A stretch of 64,000 nucleotides of DNA from Escherichia phage ECML-10, in sequence record OL631479.1, one strand, 5' to 3'. Both the position numbers and the translations under genes were made by a program. Below are positions 44,621-54,960 of this stretch, one piece after another. The notes below the pieces were generated by a model. It worked only from the letters and a program-made list of their open reading frames with translations, did no database searches and was not told the DNA's origin. Within the stretch, counting starts at the first letter, position 1. The number at the start of each line of letters is the position of its first letter.

Positions 44621-45234
44621 TGTTACGAATAAAACAATTGCATTGTTAATGATTTCTTATCTTTCTCTTAGTCATCTAATGATTCCAGTCAGTATAGTAA
44701 TGTACAGTAAACATTAGACGACTAAAGATTTCTCTGTTTATTATAACTCACCGTTATAATTTCGAGCTGTTTACGAAAAATGTTGACATCCTAGCCGATT
44801 TATGTTATGCAGTTTACACGAATAATTATTTTATGCAGGTATTGACTATTCCGTTATTCTATGGTTGGAATAAATACTTAGCAGGCTATAGACTGGTGAG
44901 CGTACGTAAATTCTGAGATCTGGCGGCTATAGTTATACTCGATTTTTCACGTAGAACACGCTTTTGTGGTTATGTAAGTGCATGAATTATAAGAATTTTT
45001 ATTTGTTGACAAGATATTGAAGATATGCATCAGGTTAAAATTTATGCAATAGCGGCATTACGTGCAATTTTGGAAGGAAAAGCGTGTAAAAATGGCCCTG
45101 CTACCACACAATGAAAGGTTATGCAATAGCTATTTTACATGTATATTTGTACAGTGTGTGGGATTGATGGCTCGTCAATTATTCCACTTGCCAGGTAGGG
45201 CCGTTTGTGGTAGGAAAAGAGAAGACAAAAAGAA

Positions 45235-45251
45235 AGGGGCTTTAAGCCCCT
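45235..45251 (-). terminator. rho-independent terminator for minus-strand block
   Basis: AGGGGC-TTTAA-GCCCCT; minus-strand reading is followed by TTTCTTTTT. Confidence 0.55.
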
Positions 45252-45270
45252 GACCGTTCATCTTGTTGTA

Positions 45271-48277: not shown

Positions 48278-48586
48278 CTATACAGAGAAAACATCGTTCA
48301 CAATAGCGATCACAATGCCGCCCACCTTGTCACGGTCAACAATGCACAAATCACCATAGATCATGTGGTAGTCTGGATGATCTTTCACGGAATAGTCAAT
48401 GAGCGTTTTCTTGTCGTCCAGCTTTGTAACTTCCATTCTCATAACGATATGAGAATCATCAAAGGCATTATTCCGAAAAGTCATAGCCTGACCACCATGG
48501 CACCCAGTGATCTCCACTTCCACACCGTCTACGATCTGACCATTAAAGAAATAAAGATTATTAGCCAGGATAAACATGTTTATCAC
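48278..48586 (-). CDS. hypothetical protein (102 aa)
   Basis: SD AAGGAG before ATG 48586. Confidence 0.55.
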   Translation of the reverse strand: MINMFILANNLYFFNGQIVDGVEVEITGCHGGQAMTFRNNAFDDSHIVMRMEVTKLDDKKTLIDYSVKDHPDYHMIYGDLCIVDRDKVGGIVIAIVNDVFSV

Positions 48587-48635
48587 TCCTTGTTAACTGC
48601 GTGTTATTTTTACCACGATTAAAATTTACTTTACT

Positions 48636-48659
48636 GATGGCCCTGGCGTCAAGGCCATC
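48636..48659. repeat. conserved stop-codon-adjacent stem-loop element, copy 1 (GATGGCC-N10-GGCCATC)
   Basis: Element tttactttactGATGGCCctggcgtcaaGGCCATCtaaaaataaattta; core ends 12 nt before stop of 48671..48871. Confidence 0.6.
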
Positions 48660-48670
48660 TAAAAATAAAT

Positions 48671-48871
48671 TTACAGGCCTACAATCTCTTTGATTCGTTT
48701 AACTGCTGCCTCAGCGCCTTGGGGGTAGAAATTATGGTAACCGATCACGCGAGTGATACTAATTGCAGTTTGATGATCTTCATAATAGCCCTTGAAGATT
48801 TCTTGACCGTCAATCAGCACGGCAATTTTTTCTTCTTTTTTGAAGTTAATAACGCGGATATTGTTGCTCAT
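48671..48871 (-). CDS. hypothetical protein (66 aa)
   Basis: SD AAAGGAGAAA before ATG 48871. Confidence 0.55.
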   Translation of the reverse strand: MSNNIRVINFKKEEKIAVLIDGQEIFKGYYEDHQTAISITRVIGYHNFYPQGAEAAVKRIKEIVGL

Positions 48872-48974
48872 TTTGTTTCTCCTTTCTGGTTTTTGTGTTG
48901 GTGGGGATTAGCTCCCCGTTGATTATTATTATCCATATTTCGGACCGGATTGCAACACCCCGGAAGAAAAATTT

Positions 48975-49008
48975 TTTGAAAAAGTTAGGCCCCCAGGGAT
49001 CGGGGGCC
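48975..49008 (-). terminator. rho-independent terminator
   Basis: GGCCCCC-AGGGATC-GGGGGCC; minus-strand reading followed by TAACTTTTTCAAAAAATTTTTC. Confidence 0.55.
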
Positions 49009-49012
49009 GTTA

Positions 49013-49132
49013 TCAGTTACTTACAGCGATAAAATACATCCCTACGCCTAACAATATTTCAAGGGCGATGATCTCAAGCCATACCATAACCCGGCGCACC
49101 TTATCGGTGCGGGGCTTATCCTTGGTTGTCAT
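49013..49132 (-). CDS. 39-aa membrane micro-protein
   Basis: SD AAAGGGGGAGA before ATG 49132; hydrophobic VMVWLEIIALEILLGVGMYFIAV; below track cutoff. Confidence 0.4.
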   Translation of the reverse strand: MTTKDKPRTDKVRRVMVWLEIIALEILLGVGMYFIAVSN

Positions 49133-49374
49133 CGTCTCCCCCTTTCATCCTGGTAGTAGTGACGTGGTTTACAATGGCCCCCAGGAGTACCATCACCACG
49201 CACATCACAAGAAAAATTATCTCTGTCGTTGTTCGATCCATTGTTATAAAATTCCTTAAGATCAGGCCTGAAAATAAAGCGTTCGTTATTGAATCCATCA
49301 CGCCAGGCGGCTGGCTTCAAATCTTCATCAAAGGGATTAATTAACGTGGTATTATTTAAACGGCTGGCCCACAT
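49129..49374 (-). CDS. hypothetical protein
   Basis: Start moved to ATG 49374 (SD GAGAGGAA). Confidence 0.45.
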   Translation of the reverse strand: MWASRLNNTTLINPFDEDLKPAAWRDGFNNERFIFRPDLKEFYNNGSNNDRDNFSCDVRGDGTPGGHCKPRHYYQDERGRR

Positions 49375-49723
49375 ATTTTCTATTCCTCTCAAATAGGCGA
49401 TCCGCCTCAGTTAAACAAATCTCATGGGCGTGATCTCTGGTTTTAGCTTCATCGAAAACCTGTTGTGCAAGGCTGCAGCGTAGGGAGACTGGAAGATCAC
49501 TATAATAGGCGTTGACAAATGTTTGCGCGTCATACAGGTCGGAAAATACTTTACCCTTTCTATTATCGCCTTTGTCAACAATTGCAAGGATAACAAGTAC
49601 AATAGTTGCAACCACCCCCAGGAAAATAGATATAATAAACCATAAAAAGGCGGATCTACCCATCTTGCCAGCGATCCAGGCGTTAAACAAGGCAACTAAT
49701 ACGGCCAAAATAATAAATTCCAT
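49352..49723 (-). CDS. membrane protein (2 N-terminal TM helices)
   Basis: Start moved to ATG 49723 (SD AAAGAGGT); MEFIILAVLVALFNAWIAG and FLWFIISIFLGVVATIVLVILAIV. Confidence 0.5.
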   Translation of the reverse strand: MEFIILAVLVALFNAWIAGKMGRSAFLWFIISIFLGVVATIVLVILAIVDKGDNRKGKVFSDLYDAQTFVNAYYSDLPVSLRCSLAQQVFDEAKTRDHAHEICLTEADRLFERNRKYVGQPFK

Positions 49724-49787
49724 TCTATGTACCTCTTTTGCAGTTCTGTTTAACAATAAGGCGGCAAATATGCCGCCTGTTACCTGA

Positions 49788-50168
49788 TTAAAAATTATCG
49801 CCGTAAATCTTTCCGCTTTCTGCCCACACCACCACGCGGGGCATACTATCCCACACGTCTTGTTTTAGATTGAGCGCGTGCAATTCTTCGGTGGTGCCCA
49901 TACCAGGCACGGGCTGATTGTATACTGCAAAACGACCACCTGCATAATCATAGGCCAGGGTTAAATCACACTGAATCATCTTTTTGATCATGGCGTTGAG
50001 CATAGCGTTAGCCGCATACTGGTCACGTTTTAAAGGCAACTCTTTGATTAGTTTGCGATAGTTTTCAATGTGATCGCACACTGTTTCACGTGGAAGATCT
50101 TTCATATCCTCGCGAAAGGTAACCAGGTTAAACATAACGGTGTCAATAGCTTTAGTAGTGTTTTTCAT
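49788..50168 (-). CDS. hypothetical protein (126 aa)
   Basis: SD AAAGAGGAAAAC before ATG 50168. Confidence 0.55.
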   Translation of the reverse strand: MKNTTKAIDTVMFNLVTFREDMKDLPRETVCDHIENYRKLIKELPLKRDQYAANAMLNAMIKKMIQCDLTLAYDYAGGRFAVYNQPVPGMGTTEELHALNLKQDVWDSMPRVVVWAESGKIYGDNF

Positions 50169-50482
50169 AATGTTTTCCTCTTTGTTTTGTGTGGGGCAAA
50201 CGTCTTGCCCCCCTTGAGTTTTAATATAGCAAGTTTTTAGATTATTGCAACACTTTATTTATGAAAAACTCATCTCTCCATATTCATCCACATCAAACCG
50301 CCAATCATTGGCCTCAATAAGGCCGATCAGGTTTTCGGTAGTGAACTGTTCTAGATAGGCCTCCTCCAGGTCTACGTAAACCTTGCGGGATAGCTCCCGT
50401 ACCGTCTCGGTGATCAGCTCTTCCAGGTCTTCCACTTTGTTTTCTTTGTTAGTGGCGGGAAGTTTTCCCGTTTACATGCTTA

Positions 50483-50510
50483 AGTATACTTATCGAGATT
50501 TACTTGTCAA
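50483..50510 (-). promoter_or_regulatory. minus-strand promoter (TTGACA-16-TATACT) with downstream GGGAAAACTTCCC hairpin
   Basis: Plus-strand tgtcaa at 50505-50510, agtata at 50483-50488; hairpin at 50457-50469. Confidence 0.5.
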
Positions 50511-50760
50511 CACTATTTTTTAAATTATTGTGGCGCAAAATGTTTAAAATCTCTTCAACGTCATCAACACGGCGGCAATTTTTAAACGCTACCAATTGCC
50601 CCAAGATTTTGATCACTGGGCGGCCTTGCCAGTGCCCCTGGAGAAAGCGCGCTTTAACTTTATCGGTGGAACTATCACGCCACCAAACTGCTTTATTATT
50701 GCAGTAGTAAAAATTATTCAGGACAACATCAACTTTATCAAAATTTTTTAATTTACGCAT
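50500..50760 (-). CDS. hypothetical protein (86 aa)
   Basis: SD AGGAAGGAG before ATG 50760. Confidence 0.55.
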   Translation of the reverse strand: MRKLKNFDKVDVVLNNFYYCNNKAVWWRDSSTDKVKARFLQGHWQGRPVIKILGQLVAFKNCRRVDDVEEILNILRHNNLKNSVDK

Positions 50761-50795
50761 GGCGTTTACTCCTTCCTTCTTGCTTTGATGTGGTT

Positions 50796-50824
50796 AGTAT
50801 ATCCGGACTGTTCCAAGGTGTCAA
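50796..50824 (-). promoter_or_regulatory. minus-strand promoter (TTGACA-17-TATACT)
   Basis: Plus-strand tgtcaa at 50819-50824, agtata at 50796-50801. Confidence 0.5.
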
Positions 50825-50969
50825 TCTTTAAATAAAATCACTGTTAATGATATTTTTAACACCATAAAACGGCCCTAGGTGATGTTTTCAGGTCAATAAA
50901 GGGGATTGCATAGGTAGGGGCTTTTGTGGCGTTTGTGGGGCCAACCAGGGGCGCTATTCGTAGGATAGA

Positions 50970-50999
50970 AATAAAAAGCCCCGCACAATGGCGGGGCGT
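50970..50999 (-). terminator. rho-independent terminator
   Basis: GCCCCGC-ACAATG-GCGGGGC; minus-strand reading followed by TTTTTATTTC. Confidence 0.6.
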
Positions 51000-51005
51000 T
51001 GGTTG

Positions 51006-51203
51006 CTATTTGTCTTTATGGCGGTACCGTTCCGCCTGTCGTTCACGTTCCAAAAGCAGGCCCGGCAGTTTACGATCATAATGATTCCGCCAGATCTTCC
51101 CAAATCTTTTTGGCTTATTTAGTTTATTGTTACGCTGGCGGCGTTCCGGCAGCTCTTCGGAATCATGAGATCGCTTTACAATCTTTTCAAAATTAATCTT
51201 CAT
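51006..51203 (-). CDS. small basic protein
   Basis: Start moved to ATG 51203 (SD AAGGGGGG); Arg/Lys-rich. Confidence 0.5.
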   Translation of the reverse strand: MKINFEKIVKRSHDSEELPERRQRNNKLNKPKRFGKIWRNHYDRKLPGLLLERERQAERYRHKDK

Positions 51204-51540
51204 ATATTCCCCCCTTGCTAACTTCAATATTGGCCTGAATAGCCCGGATACGGCGCTTTATAACTTCCTGATCTGTGTGATCGTATCCCCAAAAGTCTAC
51301 AATTTTTGCGCCCCCCGCTTCCAGGCGGTACAGTGTTTCCTGCATTTTGTAAGCCGGGATCGGTCGCGGTGTTACTTGGTCACCTTCTTTATTTTTATAC
51401 TTTATAATATAATCTTCATTATCGTTGAATGTCCAAAATGGATATTCTGCAAGGGCGGTACTTTCCTTTTTATCCTGGATCTTGTTTACAATTAAAGCCG
51501 TAGCAATAGCGCCAATAATAAAACTAGCCCCGCTGATCAT
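51193..51540 (-). CDS. membrane-anchored protein
   Basis: Start moved to ATG 51540 (SD AAAGGAGA); MISGASFIIGAIATALIV. Confidence 0.5.
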   Translation of the reverse strand: MISGASFIIGAIATALIVNKIQDKKESTALAEYPFWTFNDNEDYIIKYKNKEGDQVTPRPIPAYKMQETLYRLEAGGAKIVDFWGYDHTDQEVIKRRIRAIQANIEVSKGGIYED

Positions 51541-51615
51541 GTACTTTCTCCTTTCATTGTGTTGATAAACTATCTTTATAGATGGCCCTGCTACCAGGAC
51601 CACCGAAAAACCAGC

Positions 51616-51861
51616 TTATTTGACGATACCGACAAAACAGATCCCGCCTTCCCCTATATAGGCAATATCGGTAATTTGATAATTTGTCAAGATCCGCGTG
51701 TTCAGATCATTAATAAAATCGGTCATCGCGTTGGTGTAGTTGTCTTCCGTGTCTAAGGCATAATCCCAGGTGTAAACCTTTTTACGTCCGAAGCCTTTTA
51801 CCATGATACGGGCGCTTTTGGTGTTGGTAGGGGCATAATATTTGGTGATTAGTGCTGCCAT
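51616..51861 (-). CDS. hypothetical protein (81 aa)
   Basis: SD AGGAG before ATG 51861. Confidence 0.55.
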   Translation of the reverse strand: MAALITKYYAPTNTKSARIMVKGFGRKKVYTWDYALDTEDNYTNAMTDFINDLNTRILTNYQITDIAYIGEGGICFVGIVK

Positions 51862-51915
51862 GGTTTTAACTCCTATGCATTAGTTCAGTGTTAACAGTAT
51901 AACGTTTACTTTATT

Positions 51916-51939
51916 GATGGCCCTGGAGTCAAGGCCATC
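51916..51939. repeat. conserved stop-codon-adjacent stem-loop element, copy 2
   Basis: tttactttattGATGGCCctggagtcaaGGCCATCtaaaaataaattta; core ends 12 nt before stop of 51951..52292. Confidence 0.6.
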
Positions 51940-51950
51940 TAAAAATAAAT

Positions 51951-52292
51951 TTACTCGTTTTCTTCCAGTTCTGCAAGCTCTTCTTTCACTTCTTCAAGCT
52001 CTGTATGCAATTCCTGGTATTCTTCATCGTCCTCAATATCCAGGCTGTCGATGTAGTCGCTAAATCCGCAGCGGTAAGCGATAGGATCTAGCTCCTTGAG
52101 GATACGCGACGGAAGAAAAGAAATGTTTCCGATCATAATTTCGCCGTAGATCTCGTCTAACCATTCATCATAGTTTTCGTCGTACTTGTCCTCGTCGATT
52201 TCAAAGTTATCGATCTTGTTCTCAAGGTCTGCGATCTGTTTTTTCAGCGCGGCGATCTGCATAGCTTTTTCTGCGGCGGTCATAGTAGTCAT
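51951..52292 (-). CDS. hypothetical acidic protein, predicted coiled coil
   Basis: SD AAAAGGAGAAAA before ATG 52292. Confidence 0.55.
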   Translation of the reverse strand: MTTMTAAEKAMQIAALKKQIADLENKIDNFEIDEDKYDENYDEWLDEIYGEIMIGNISFLPSRILKELDPIAYRCGFSDYIDSLDIEDDEEYQELHTELEEVKEELAELEENE

Positions 52293-52343
52293 AGTGTTTT
52301 CTCCTTTTGTGTGCTCTGGGAAGTTTTCCCGTTTACGTGTTTA

Positions 52344-52371
52344 AGTATATCGATCTAAGTTAGTTTGTCAA
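52344..52371 (-). promoter_or_regulatory. minus-strand promoter (TTGACA-16-TATACT) with downstream GGGAAAACTTCCC hairpin
   Basis: Plus-strand tgtcaa at 52366-52371, agtata at 52344-52349; hairpin at 52317-52330. Confidence 0.5.
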
Positions 52372-52491
52372 TTAAAAATTTAAGAAAAATTTTGCAAAAC
52401 TGTTAGCGCTACTCATTAACATTTGCGCCAGGATGTAACCGACAACGCAAACGATAATAGTTATCTTTGTGTATTGGCGTGTAGTGCTCAT
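52369..52491 (-). CDS. 40-aa hydrophobic micro-protein
   Basis: SD AAAGGGGG before ATG 52491; below track cutoff. Confidence 0.35.
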
Positions 52492-52536
52492 CTTAAAGCC
52501 CCCTTTTTCGCTTAGTTGAGATTAGTTTACTTTATT

Positions 52537-52560
52537 GAAGGCCCTGGAGTCAAGGCCATC
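52537..52560. repeat. conserved stop-codon-adjacent stem-loop element, copy 3 (one mismatch in stem)
   Basis: tttactttattGAAGGCCctggagtcaaGGCCATCtaaaaataaactta; core ends 12 nt before stop of 52572..52976. Confidence 0.55.
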
Positions 52561-52571
52561 TAAAAATAAAC

Positions 52572-52976
52572 TTAGTAAGTTTTCAGTACTTTACCGTCCA
52601 ACCTGTCAAGCTGGATCTCGATAGCTGCAGAAAACCTATTGTAAACCACATCGCCCATAGAATCCAACCAGTCTATGACATTATACACTTGCTCTTTGTT
52701 CTTGCAGGTCCGGATCCGTTTCATGATGTAAGCCGGATCAATATTGGTACTCTCGTTGGTGTTCCCCTGTACCTGGTTTGCCGTATTAGTTACATCTTTA
52801 ATGGCCTTTACCACCACCTGGAATGGCTTTAAGGTGCCTTTTGCGTTCATCTCACGCGCTTTTGCGGCGCGGTTGTTATATGTTACACAACGGCGGCAAA
52901 TGTTGACCAAATGCATGTCAATAATTTTTTCATCGTTTGCCAGTTCGTTCATGATGCGGCGTACGTTCTTATTCAT
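52572..52976 (-). CDS. hypothetical protein (134 aa)
   Basis: SD AGAGGAAAAG before ATG 52976. Confidence 0.55.
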   Translation of the reverse strand: MNKNVRRIMNELANDEKIIDMHLVNICRRCVTYNNRAAKAREMNAKGTLKPFQVVVKAIKDVTNTANQVQGNTNESTNIDPAYIMKRIRTCKNKEQVYNVIDWLDSMGDVVYNRFSAAIEIQLDRLDGKVLKTY

Positions 52977-53055
52977 AGCTTTTCCTCTGTGTTGGCGGGA
53001 TGTTCCCCGCCTTTTGTGTCTAGTTTACTTAAATTTTGCAGCGTGTCAATGATTT

Positions 53056-54419: not shown

Positions 54420-54960
54420 AATTACCCTCCGTAACAATTTCCTATAAAACAGTATCCCATAAAATATTCCCATATAGAAATTTTAAAAATCCATTTCTGA
54501 AAACGAAAAATCGATTTCGTCCCCAAAAATTTCAGGTCGAGATCCGGAACGATTTCCAGAAAATCCGATTCAGAAAACGAAAAACAGATCGAGTACTGAG
54601 AAATTTATCGAGAAAAATTTTCAGAAAATCCAAGCCATGAAATGAAAAGTAGATCGAGTACTTGGAAAGCTGCACCGCAACTTCAAGATAGTGGTTAGAT
54701 TGTTACCATAGAAGGTTAAGGGCAAGTGGAGGAAGTTCTAGTAGAGGGAGGTTAGCATGTGTGGGAAATCTATAATGGTGGCCTGGAATATGGTGCAAAC
54801 GATAGGATGAGTTATTCAGCTTGTCGCGCCTACTCTGAAAAATCCATTTTAGTTTTCGATCCATTTTCTGATTTTCTAAGAATTTTAAAATATCCAGCCC
54901 GGTGAAATATCAAAAGGAGGAAATCCATTTTAGAAATCCCCCTTACACTTGATATGCCAG
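54420..54960. repeat. AT-rich iteron-dense noncoding region
   Basis: Repeated GAAAATCC, TTCAGAAAACGAAAAA, AGATCGAGTACT and AAATCCATTTTAG motifs; no credible ORF. Confidence 0.55.

What the first reader, a model, noticed from the sequence alone, without database searches (positions are those of the whole stretch)
48620..52577. Conserved 50-nt stem-loop element at a fixed distance from stop codons of three minus-strand genes
TTTACTTT(A/T)(C/T)TGA(T/A)GGCCCTGG(A/C)GTCAAGGCCATCTAAAAATAAA(T/C)TTA occurs at 48625-48673, 51908-51953 and 52527-52574. In each copy the 7-bp GC-rich stem ends exactly 12 nt from the TAA of the upstream minus-strand gene, although the three protein C-termini are unrelated. 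The stem is not followed by a U tract in either orientation, so it is not a canonical terminator. The loop contains TTGAC(T/G). An RNA processing or stability hairpin or a protein-binding site are possible.
Basis: seen in the sequence. Interest (0 to 1): 0.6.

Follow-up and report, generated by a model that had tools for sequence, protein, structure and literature searches.

The report
Promoter-in-a-hairpin cassette joint of rV5-like phages
A conserved ~54-base intergenic element in an rV5-like coliphage looks like a host-type early promoter whose -35 box sits inside an RNA hairpin placed just after the upstream gene's stop codon, and small gene cassettes are gained, lost and swapped between phages at this element.

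Summary
Three near-identical copies lie at 48620-48673, 51900-51953 and 52521-52574 on the minus strand. I found a fourth, diverged copy (e4) at 51565-51618. The window is a Vequintavirus (rV5-like). About 120 sequenced relatives each carry about three copies, all in this 4-kb early region.

On the gene strand each copy reads stop codon, T-run, 10-bp GC stem with tetraloop, then AATAAAGTAAAYT. Two readings overlap, and both have support.

- **RNA hairpin:** a 21-bp bipartite hairpin is favoured on the sense strand only, with wobble-preserving and compensatory changes. e4 keeps the hairpin without TTGAC.
- **Sigma70-type promoter:** T-rich upstream tract, TTGACN, 18 nt, TAAAYT. The -10 region, AAGTAAACT, recurs in canonical promoters of this phage and of phi92-like phages. 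In phage KKE7M it occupies exactly the place of a native -10.

Recombination junctions fall inside the element. A 620-bp cassette between copies 3 and 2 has been lost repeatedly, and a promoter-gene-element cassette is shared at 96% identity with a phage of another subfamily.

Best fit is a PeSL-like promoter/stem-loop cassette with a new geometry. It is not a canonical terminator. All activities are inferred, and nothing was measured.

The parts
48620..48673 (-). Copy 1 (c1) of the element: TAA stop of the 66-aa gene, T-run, hairpin, AGTAAAGTAAATT. It lies upstream of the ~100-aa gene (ORF 48278-48586; ATG near 48577).
   Evidence: 75.9 bits
51900..51953 (-). Copy 2 (c2): follows the stop of the 113-aa gene (51951-52292) and lies upstream of the 81-aa gene (51616-51861).
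   Evidence: 72.4 bits
52521..52574 (-). Copy 3 (c3): follows the stop of the 134-aa gene (52572-52976) and lies upstream of the 39-aa gene (52372-52491). In this window one stem pair is broken (U.U).
   Evidence: 74.8 bits
51565..51618 (-). Diverged fourth member (e4): follows the stop of the 81-aa gene. The hairpin is GGUGGUCCUG-GUAG-CAGGGCCAUC followed by UAUAAAGAUAG. It has the same 3' arm as the other copies and no TTGAC.
   Evidence: family D1; 66.3 bits
48636..48659 (-). Upper 10-bp stem and tetraloop of c1.
51916..51939 (-). Upper 10-bp stem and tetraloop of c2.
52537..52560 (-). Upper stem and tetraloop of c3.
51581..51604 (-). Upper stem and tetraloop of e4.
48623..48652 (-). Putative promoter in c1: -35 TTGACG (48652-48647), 18-nt spacer, -10 TAAATT (48628-48623). 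The predicted transcription start is near 48616.
   Evidence: The orthologous site in phage Gotham is annotated by PhagePromoter.
51903..51932 (-). Putative promoter in c2: -35 TTGACT (51932-51927), 18-nt spacer, -10 TAAACG in this window and TAAACT in the other genomes sampled (TAAATT in KKE7M). The predicted start is near 51896.
   Evidence: The Gotham annotation covers the orthologous site.
52524..52553 (-). Putative promoter in c3: -35 TTGACT (52553-52548), 18-nt spacer, -10 TAAACT (52529-52524). The predicted start is near 52517.
51954..52520 (-). Cassette bounded by c3 and c2. It holds the 39-aa gene (52372-52491), a sigma70 promoter TTGACA-16-TATACT (52371-52344), a leader hairpin (about 52318-52330) and the 113-aa gene (51951-52292). 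It is absent from ime, magaca, ECP26 and contig L011, which keep one hybrid element (ECP32, with two places, probably also lacks it).
53022..53049 (-). Comparator: canonical early promoter TTGACA-16-TAAACT with ..TTTAAGTAAACT, followed 10 nt later by a leader hairpin. It is P194 in the rV5 paper.

Best explanation
The element is a composite intergenic regulatory cassette of rV5-like phages, and the same ~54 nt are read in two ways.

- **On DNA:** it is a host sigma70-type early promoter for the gene downstream. It has a T-rich upstream tract resembling a distal UP subsite, a -35 TTGACN, an 18-bp spacer and a -10 TAAAYT.
- **On RNA:** transcripts reading through from the promoter of the gene upstream fold it into a 21-bp bipartite hairpin. 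The lower A-U stem starts at the stop codon, followed by a 2x3 internal loop, a 10-bp GC stem and a tetraloop. It has no U tract. It most likely forms or protects the 3' end of the upstream message, either as an RNase III-type processing site or as a barrier to exonucleases, rather than terminating transcription.
- **As a recombination joint:** because the copies are near-identical and mark gene boundaries, they also act as portable joints. Homologous exchange between copies deletes, inserts or converts the cassettes between them.

Shown here: the repeat family, the strand-specific structure with covariation, the promoter-like anatomy and its positional equivalence to native promoters, and the recombination junctions.

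Inferred: promoter activity, RNA cleavage or stabilisation, and the enzyme involved.
For: **Repeat and conservation**
- The core occurs three times against 0.09 expected.
- 120 phage records carry about three places each, all Vequintavirus apart from KKE7M.
- The core shows essentially no diversity across about 15 genomes that are 85-96% identical, while flanking codons and leaders vary.

**RNA hairpin**
- The sense strand folds at -21 to -23 kcal/mol (z -4.3 to -5.2). The antisense strand folds at -12.5 to -16, or -9.2 for e4.
- 96.3% of cells pair, against 35-55% in slid registers and 84.8% on the antisense strand.
- Four lower-stem pairs change on both sides.
- Three upper-stem pairs change only through wobble.
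- e4 keeps the geometry and the stop-codon register without TTGAC.
- The c3 copy in L040 gains 2 nt that break sigma70 spacing but keep the hairpin.

**Promoter**
- The scan lists c1 and c3 as TTGACN-18-TAAAYT.
- The PhagePromoter features in the Gotham record are exactly these 30 nt.
- The window's canonical promoter at 53049 is TTGACA-16-TAAACT with AAGTAAACT, and is P194 in the rV5 paper.
- phi92 has TTGCAA-16-TAAACT with AATAAAGTAAACT.
- Phage muut has TTGACA-16-TAAACT, then 11 nt, then a leader hairpin. In KKE7M the element's AAAGTAAATT stands at the same position and the same 11-nt distance.
- The only strongly variable core positions are the sixth base of the -35 box and the base after it.

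**Recombination**
- A single hybrid element (c3 upstream flank, c2 downstream flank) is found in L011, ime and ECP26. magaca matches the hybrid junction as one piece.
- The flanks of ime and magaca are 99.4% identical to those of phages that carry the cassette, so the loss is recent. The ECP26 flanks are FV3-like, so that loss was a separate event.
- The promoter-gene-element cassette is shared at 96.4% identity with a Justusliebigvirus, and the homology ends at the end of the element.
- The loop alleles TC, GC, AC and TT each occur at all three paralogous sites in different genomes, which points to gene conversion.
Against: - No transcript ends, cleavage sites or reporter data exist for any Vequintavirus in the library searched.
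- By hexamers alone the promoter match is weak: 9 of 12, an 18-bp spacer and a GC-rich spacer. Matches of this quality are common, with 28 found against 19 expected in shuffles.
- The window's own c2 has TAAACG, which lacks the -7 T.
- The UP-like tract, the -35 box and the -10 box coincide exactly with the 5' lower stem, the upper stem and loop, and the 3' lower stem. Conservation therefore cannot separate the two readings.
- The covariation rests on few independent events, mostly c-type against e4, in closely related sequences.
- c3 tolerates a broken pair in this window and a 6-nt deletion of the 3' arm in Gotham. rV5_ev146 lost c1 and c3 altogether, so at least these copies are dispensable.
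- Gene conversion could by itself keep the copies alike.
Confidence: 0.55

Rival explanations
1. It is a pure RNA element: an intercistronic processing or stabiliser hairpin acting only on polycistronic early transcripts, for example an RNase III site like those between T7 early genes. On this view TTGAC and TAAAYT are by-products of the stem and of the A/U-rich lower helix.
For: - Strand-asymmetric folding and wobble-only changes.
- e4 is as conserved as c1-c3 but has no TTGAC.
- The c3 copy in L040 keeps the hairpin while its sigma70 spacing becomes 20 nt.
- The T7 early RNase III sites are likewise a repeated family of 9-13 bp upper stems with tetra/pentaloops, placed 8-40 nt after stop codons, without U tracts (site positions are from my own knowledge of Dunn and Studier 1983).
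- KKE7M has stop-proximal hairpins without promoters, followed by the same GCCATCAATAAAG.
- The upstream genes have their own promoters, so a further promoter is not needed.
Against: - AAGTAAACT recurs as the -10 region of canonical promoters in this phage and in phi92-like phages.
- In KKE7M it replaces a native -10 at the same spacing to the leader hairpin.
- TTGAC is invariant in 28 distinct c-type sequences while the next two bases vary freely.
- The chance of TTGAC, a -10-like hexamer at 16-19 nt and a T-rich tract occurring together is low (my own rough estimate, about 1%).
Confidence: 0.22
2. It is a promoter with a DNA-level operator. The palindrome GATGGCC-N10-GGCCATC overlapping the -35 box and spacer would be the binding site of a dimeric phage or host regulator that switches these three promoters, and the RNA fold would be incidental.
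For: - The palindrome overlaps the -35 box and spacer, as classic operators do.
- Three co-regulated sites per genome would fit a small regulon.
- The promoter evidence is as given above.
Against: - The extended pairing relies on G.U pairs, which are mismatches in DNA.
- In e4 the DNA half-sites match only 5 of 7, yet RNA pairing is 97.9% on the sense strand against 78.3% on the antisense strand.
- The changes seen in the stem are those tolerated by RNA: C to U in the FFH2 c3 copy, and e4 against the c-type copies.
- No candidate regulator was identified.
Confidence: 0.1
3. It is an unusual transcription terminator or attenuator that ends the upstream single-gene transcripts. The Murica record annotates c1 and e4 this way.
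For: - It sits immediately after stop codons.
- The stem is stable.
- The Murica annotation marks c1 and e4 as terminators.
- The stem-loops of PeSLs terminate transcription in reporter assays (PMC2839356).
Against: - The 3' tail AAUAAAGUAAAC has only 2 U in 12, and the T-run lies on the 5' side on both strands.
- The terminator scan does not list it, although it finds the canonical terminators nearby at 49008, 49778 and 50997.
- The downstream genes lie close by on the same strand.
Confidence: 0.06
4. It has no regulatory function. It would be a repeat kept alike by gene conversion, or a selfish, MITE-like passenger, that merely provides homology for recombination.
For: - Patchwork of loop alleles among the copies.
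- Copies are dispensable in rV5_ev146 and degraded in the Gotham c3 copy.
- There are only three copies, all clustered.
Against: - Orthologous copies are invariant across genomes that are 85-96% identical, while neighbouring non-coding bases vary.
- e4 is too diverged to be homogenised with c1-c3, yet it keeps the structure through compensatory changes.
- The orientation and the register to the stop codons are fixed.
Confidence: 0.05

Closest known systems
PeSLs (promoter-early stem-loops) of T4-like phages (Arbiol et al. 2010, PMC2839356; Comeau et al. 2014, PMC4122927)
   Same: - A short conserved intergenic cassette that combines an AT-rich tract, a sigma70-like early promoter and a stem-loop.
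- It lies between small genes of unknown function in a variable early region.
- The copies serve as crossover points for deletion, insertion and exchange of single-gene cassettes between related phages.
- Degraded copies exist.
   Different: - It occurs in other phage lineages: Vequintavirinae, and one Stephanstirmvirinae.
- In PeSLs the stem-loop lies upstream of the AT-rich tract and the -35 box. Here the -35 box is inside the hairpin and the AT-rich tract and -10 region form its lower stem.
- It has an 18-bp spacer and a weaker -10.
- There are only 3 (+1) copies per genome, against dozens for PeSLs.
- PeSL promoter and terminator activity and mini-circles were shown experimentally. Nothing has been measured here.
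RNase III processing signals between the early genes of phage T7 (R0.3, R0.5, R1, R1.1, R1.3)
   Same: - A repeated family of about 45-55-nt hairpins with a 9-13 bp GC-rich upper stem, a small loop, an internal loop and a lower stem.
- They lie just after stop codons in a polycistronic early operon of a coliphage and have no U tract.
- G.U pairs are present.
- Minor E. coli promoters (B, C) and T7 promoters lie next to or inside them.
   Different: - There is no sequence relationship. My model of the element hits R0.3 and R1 only at E 6-8.
- The lower stem here is almost pure A-U.
- Cleavage has not been tested.
- The T7 sites carry no consensus -35 box in the loop.
Canonical early promoter plus leader-hairpin cassettes of rV5-like and phi92-like phages (for example window 53049-52980; muut and phi92 upstream of the gp235 homologue)
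   Same: - An AT-rich upstream tract, TTGACA or TTGCAA, and the -10 region (A/T)AAGTAAACT.
- They bound single-gene cassettes.
- In KKE7M the element stands in for such a promoter.
   Different: - In canonical cassettes the spacer is 16-17 nt, and the GC hairpin lies about 10 nt downstream of the -10, at the 5' end of the transcript.
- In the element the hairpin lies upstream of the predicted start and encloses the -35 box. The leader has no hairpin.
Intrinsic (Rho-independent) terminators
   Same: A stable GC-rich hairpin directly after a gene.
   Different: There is no U tract after the stem in either orientation. Canonical terminators in the same region do have one.

Membership tests
PeSL (promoter-early stem-loop cassette) | Sigma70-like early promoter (-35, about 17 nt, -10) | tested here: inconclusive
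   The element reads TTGACN-18-TAAAYT, a 9 of 12 match. The -10 region is shared with canonical promoters and is positionally equivalent to one in KKE7M compared with muut. Activity was not measured.
PeSL (promoter-early stem-loop cassette) | AT-rich tract upstream of the -35 box | tested here: met
   (A/G)TTTATTTTTA lies 8 nt upstream of TTGAC in all copies.
PeSL (promoter-early stem-loop cassette) | Stable stem-loop just upstream of the promoter | tested here: not met
   A stable hairpin is present, but it encloses the -35 box instead of lying upstream of the AT-rich tract. The geometry therefore differs.
PeSL (promoter-early stem-loop cassette) | Intergenic position among small genes of unknown function in a variable region, with indels and exchanges whose junctions fall in the element | tested here: met
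   A hybrid c3/c2 element is found in L011, ime and ECP26, and magaca matches the same junction. The KKE7M cassette ends at the element.
PeSL (promoter-early stem-loop cassette) | Promoter and terminator activity in reporter fusions, and mini-circle formation | not testable with these tools
   This needs lacZ fusions and inverse PCR, as in PMC2839356.
PeSL (promoter-early stem-loop cassette) | Host lineage: T4-like myoviruses | tested here: not met
   The window is a Vequintavirus.
T7-type RNase III processing signal | About 20 bp of bipartite helix with an internal loop, in an intergenic position of an early polycistronic transcript, without a U tract | tested here: met
   The helix has 10 + 8-11 bp with a 2x3 internal loop and starts at the stop codon. 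The T7 sites were folded for comparison.
T7-type RNase III processing signal | Sequence or profile similarity to the T7 sites | tested here: not met
   Model R1 scores T7 R0.3 and R1 at only 11-12 bits, E 6-8. No Rfam family matches.
T7-type RNase III processing signal | Cleavage by RNase III | not testable with these tools
   This needs an in vitro cleavage assay, or a comparison of transcript ends in rnc+ and rnc- hosts.
Intrinsic terminator | GC-rich hairpin followed by a U tract | tested here: not met
   The tail is AAUAAAGUAAAC, and the terminator scan does not list the element.
E. coli sigma70 promoter with UP element | Near-consensus -35 and -10 boxes with a 16-18 bp spacer | tested here: inconclusive
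   The -35 box matches 5-6 of 6. The -10 box matches 4 of 6, with A-11 and T-7 present except in the window's c2. The spacer is 18 bp.
E. coli sigma70 promoter with UP element | A/T-rich UP element at about -57 to -38 | tested here: inconclusive
   The T-rich tract matches about 9 of 11 positions of the distal subsite consensus, which I recalled from memory. The proximal subsite is replaced by the GC stem.

The most novel reading that the evidence does not exclude
One 54-nt sequence would be read three ways. On DNA it would act as an early promoter. On RNA it would act as an RNase III-type processing or stabilising hairpin that closes the upstream message at its stop codon. It would also be the portable homology that moves self-contained promoter-gene-hairpin cassettes within genomes and between phage subfamilies (Vequintavirinae and Stephanstirmvirinae). 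That would make the PeSL principle general for large virulent coliphages rather than a T4-family peculiarity.
Probability: 0.25. Interest if true: 0.6.

Novelty: new variant of a known kind. Interest (0 to 1): 0.45.

Why it matters
rV5-like phages are widely used in typing, biocontrol and therapy cocktails against E. coli, yet their early gene regulation is known only from consensus scans. This element would add a class of early promoters missed by the stringent published scan, because of its 18-nt spacer. It would also add a probable RNA processing or stabilising signal.

The findings further suggest that the promoter/stem-loop linker mechanism of modular gene shuffling, described only for T4-like phages, also operates in two other subfamilies and across them. 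That bears on how accessory early genes, many of them likely anti-defence or host-takeover genes, spread.

It also gives a compact natural part for engineering: a promoter and an mRNA end in 54 nt.

Tried and rejected
- **Canonical terminator:** rejected, because there is no U tract on either strand.
- **Genome-wide regulatory motif:** rejected. There are only 3 (+1) copies, all within 4 kb.
- **Rfam:** no family matches.
- **IMG/VR scans with two patterns:** almost all hits were chance matches. Only about three rV5-like contigs were found.
- **Metagenome scan:** Only L112, L137 and L172 were real.
- **rV5_ev146 deletions as element-mediated events:** rejected. Its junctions lie elsewhere, at short microhomologies.
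- **Different gene after c3 in contig L112:** it is just a diverged homologue of the 39-aa gene.
- **tblastn of the 81-aa protein:** run to find orthologous intergenic regions in other genera. The homologues sit in unrelated phage types, so this was not pursued.
- **Alternative -10 boxes:** TAAAGT at 13 nt from the -35 box, and TATACT at 25 nt in c2, have the wrong spacing.
- **DNA cruciform or operator:** disfavoured by the G.U-dependent pairing and by e4.
- **Literature:** no transcript mapping exists for Vequintavirinae, and no paper holds the motif.
- **Partial match at 45087-45106:** it has no 5' arm and is not a hairpin.

Full report
**1. The observation**

The 18-nt core occurs three times in the window, at 48639-48656, 51919-51936 and 52540-52557, against 0.09 expected by chance. 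All genes in this region are on the minus strand, so I read the element on that strand. It runs: stop codon TAA, then ATTTATTTTTA, GATGGCCTTG, ACNC, CAGGGCCATC, ARTAAAGTAAAY. After another 25-40 nt come a Shine-Dalgarno sequence and the next ATG.

Three independent methods find a fourth, diverged copy (e4) at 51565-51618. These are an HMM of the three copies, the repeat finder (family D1) and a covariance model. e4 follows the stop of the 81-aa gene. It has the same 3' arm and AUAAAG, but a different 5' arm and loop, and no TTGAC. The stop codon is in the same register in all four copies. There is no U tract on either strand. The three upstream proteins end differently.

**2. Where it comes from and how widespread it is**

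The window is a Vequintavirus, an rV5-like coliphage. A 71-nt query finds the element in 120 phage records, with about three places in each. All are Vequintavirus except KKE7M, a phi92-like Justusliebigvirus of another subfamily, which has one copy. The model finds no further members in the 64-kb window.

So this is a small local family conserved across a genus, not a genome-wide motif. It is not in Rfam. It is not among the 33 promoters and 20 terminators of the rV5 paper, whose filter required 10 of 12 matches and a 15-17 nt spacer. No paper in the library holds the sequence. Two GenBank records annotate it automatically, and they disagree. Gotham calls c1 and c2 promoters (PhagePromoter; exactly TTGACT-18-TAAAYT). 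Murica calls c1 and e4 terminators.

**3. The RNA reading**

As RNA the sense strand folds into a bipartite hairpin. It has a lower A-U stem of 8-11 bp that begins at the stop codon, a 2x3 internal loop, a 10-bp upper stem with one U.G pair, and a tetraloop.

| Measure | Sense strand | Antisense strand |
|---|---|---|
| Folding energy, c1-c3 | -21 to -23 kcal/mol (z -4.3 to -5.2) | -12.5 to -16 kcal/mol |
| Folding energy, e4 | -23 kcal/mol | -9 kcal/mol |
| Cells forming a pair, all 37 sequences | 96.3% | 84.8% |
| Cells forming a pair, e4 only | 97.9% | 78.3% |
| Covariance model score | 66-76 bits | 27-42 bits |

I aligned 37 distinct sequences from about 16 genomes. With the 3' partners slid by 1-3 columns, only 35-55% of cells pair. 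Four lower-stem pairs change on both sides, for example C-G to U-A within e4 and G-C to A-U among the c-type copies. Three upper-stem pairs differ between c-type and e4 only through wobble (A-U to G.U, C-G to U.G, U.G to C-G). The upper stem is 99.7% paired. The FFH2 c3 copy has a C-to-U change that keeps pairing by wobble. The c3 copy of the most divergent contig (L040/L112, about 85% identical to the window) gains a base in the loop and one in the 3' flank. That keeps the hairpin but stretches the -35 to -10 distance to 20 nt.

Across orthologues the core has essentially no diversity apart from two loop positions, while flanking third-codon positions and leaders vary.

There are caveats. The sequences are closely related and the number of independent events is small. 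c3 is clearly less constrained: it has a broken pair in this window and a 6-nt deletion of the 3' arm in Gotham.

**4. The DNA reading**

The same sequence is TTGACN, 18 nt, TAAAYT, preceded by a T-rich tract (one search lists c1 and c3). On hexamers alone this is unremarkable: 28 such sites were found against 19 expected. Three further observations raise it well above chance.

1. The window's canonical early promoters are TTGACA, 16-17 nt, then TA(T/A/C)ACT, with AT-rich upstream tracts and mostly a GC leader hairpin about 10 nt downstream. One of them, at 53049, is TTGACA-16-TAAACT with ..TTTAAGTAAACT. This is P194 of the rV5 paper. The element's AAAGTAAACT is therefore this phage's own -10 region.
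2. phi92 has TTGCAA-16-TAAACT with AAAAATAAAGTAAACT upstream of gp235.
3. The locus between the gp233 and gp235 homologues has three alleles.
   - Phage muut has only the native promoter: TTGACA-16-TAAACT, 11 nt, leader hairpin, SD, ATG.
   - phi92 has an extra gene (gp234) bounded by two such promoters.
   - KKE7M has the rV5-type cassette inserted from -10 to -10. The left junction is ..AAAATC|GATATACT. The right junction is ..CAATAAAGTAAATT|ATATTCATTAAGGCGG. The element's TAAATT therefore sits exactly where the native TAAACT sat, 11 nt from the same leader hairpin.

Within the element, TTGAC is invariant in all 28 distinct c-type sequences. The sixth -35 position (T, G or A) and the next base (C or T) are the only freely varying core positions.

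Some points count against the promoter reading:
- The spacer is 18 bp and GC-rich.
- The window's c2 has TAAACG.
- e4 has no -35 box.

**5. Why conservation cannot separate the two readings**

The T-rich tract is the 5' strand of the lower stem. The -35 box is the top of the upper stem plus the loop. The -10 region is the 3' strand of the lower stem. Conservation therefore cannot tell the two readings apart, and I conclude the element is probably both.

e4 is as conserved as the others, has no TTGAC, and has degenerate DNA symmetry with perfect RNA pairing. This shows that the hairpin alone is under selection. The KKE7M, muut and phi92 comparison shows that the 3' half behaves as a promoter -10 region.

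**6. What the hairpin probably does**

It has no U tract, whereas canonical terminators nearby do, so termination is unlikely. Its size and layout are those of the T7 early RNase III sites: about 21 bp in total, a 10-bp upper stem, an internal loop at its base, and a position right after stop codons in early operons of a coliphage. I folded the T7 sites for comparison. They too are a repeated family with 9-13 bp upper stems, lie 8-40 nt after stop codons, and sit next to minor E. coli promoters. The T7 site positions are from my own knowledge. There is no sequence similarity between the two families.

A generic barrier to 3' exonucleases is equally possible. KKE7M also has stop-proximal hairpins without promoters that share GCCATCAATAAAG with the element, so such intercistronic hairpins are a common theme in these phages. 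With the leader hairpin downstream of the upstream promoter, a unit of promoter, 5' hairpin, ORF and 3' hairpin would be a self-contained expression cassette. This step is inference.

**7. Recombination**

- *Hybrid elements.* Contig L011 and phages ime and ECP26 carry a single hybrid element, with the c3 upstream flank and the c2 downstream flank. They lack the 620 bp in between, which hold the 39-aa gene, a promoter and the 113-aa gene. magaca matches the same hybrid junction as a single piece, and ECP32 has only two places.
- *Recent and repeated loss.* The flanks of ime and magaca are 99.4% identical to those of phages that carry the cassette, so the loss is recent. The ECP26 flanks are FV3-like, so the event happened more than once.
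- *Exchange between subfamilies.* The promoter plus 113-aa gene plus element is shared with KKE7M at 96.4% identity. The homology ends at the element.
- *Gene conversion.* The four loop alleles (TC, GC, AC, TT) each occur at c1, c2 and c3 in different genomes, which indicates conversion between copies.
- *A counter-example.* The deletions in rV5_ev146 that removed c1 and c3 are not element-mediated.

**8. Comparison with known systems**

The closest known system is the PeSL of T4-like phages (PMC2839356, PMC4122927). A PeSL has an AT-rich tract, a sigma70-like promoter and a stem-loop, lies between small genes of unknown function, and mediates modular shuffling. The present element meets the positional and recombinational criteria. 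It differs in lineage, in geometry (the hairpin encloses the -35 box instead of preceding the AT-rich tract), in copy number, and in having no experimental support. I therefore file it as a new variant of that kind, working partly like a T7 RNase III site, and not as a member of either family.

**9. Verdict**

All functional statements remain inferences from sequence. My confidence in the composite explanation is about 0.55. Interest is moderate (0.45), because this is a neat, unreported regulatory and recombination module in a practically important phage genus, but of a kind with clear precedents.

Noticed in passing
window 50457-50510 and 52318-52371: Two sigma70 promoters (TTGACA-16-TATACT) share the following leader, TAARCAYGTAAACGGGAAAACTTCCC, which contains a small 5' hairpin. 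Most canonical early promoters in 44-54 kb are followed about 10 nt later by a GC-rich leader hairpin. The same architecture is repeated at least 5 times in the phi92-like locus L017 (repeat families D1-D3).
   Followed up: partly
window 54468-54668: Three direct repeats of about 62 nt (61-76% identical) lie in non-coding DNA upstream of the early gene block. Their function is unknown.
   Followed up: no
L017 (KKE7M) 1054-1408: There are three 79-nt direct repeats, followed by three palindromes (ATGATAATCATTCTCAT...) that resemble the E. coli Fur box as I recall it from memory.
   Followed up: no
window 44717-45270: This is a stretch of about 550 bp with no convincing ORF. It contains a 36-nt direct repeat (45037-45072 and 45114-45149) and a fragment, GGTAGCAGGGCCAT (45087-45106), that matches the 3' half of e4 but has no 5' arm.
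   Followed up: partly
L016 (rV5_ev146, LR699804): This rV5 variant lacks window 52988-52479 and 51056-45993 through deletions at junctions of 10-15 nt of microhomology. About 5.5 kb of early genes, including c1 and c3, are therefore dispensable.
   Followed up: partly
L196, L197 and L017 (locus between the phi92 gp233 and gp235 homologues): The locus has three alleles in phi92-like phages: no insert (muut), gp234 (phi92 and many others), or the rV5-type 113-aa gene (KKE7M). Each insert is bounded by promoter sequences.
   Followed up: yes
GenBank MG0656xx records: About 17-22 records named 'Campylobacter phage', with Campylobacter jejuni given as host, are near-identical to rV5-like or phi92-like coliphage genomes. 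The organism and host labels look wrong.
   Followed up: no
window 51616-51861: The 81-aa protein is 100% identical in Escherichia phage BP9 (PP488543), which is likely the source or the closest relative of the window. More distant homologues (about 45% identity) occur in Seuratvirus-type siphoviruses such as CAjan and Greed.
   Followed up: no
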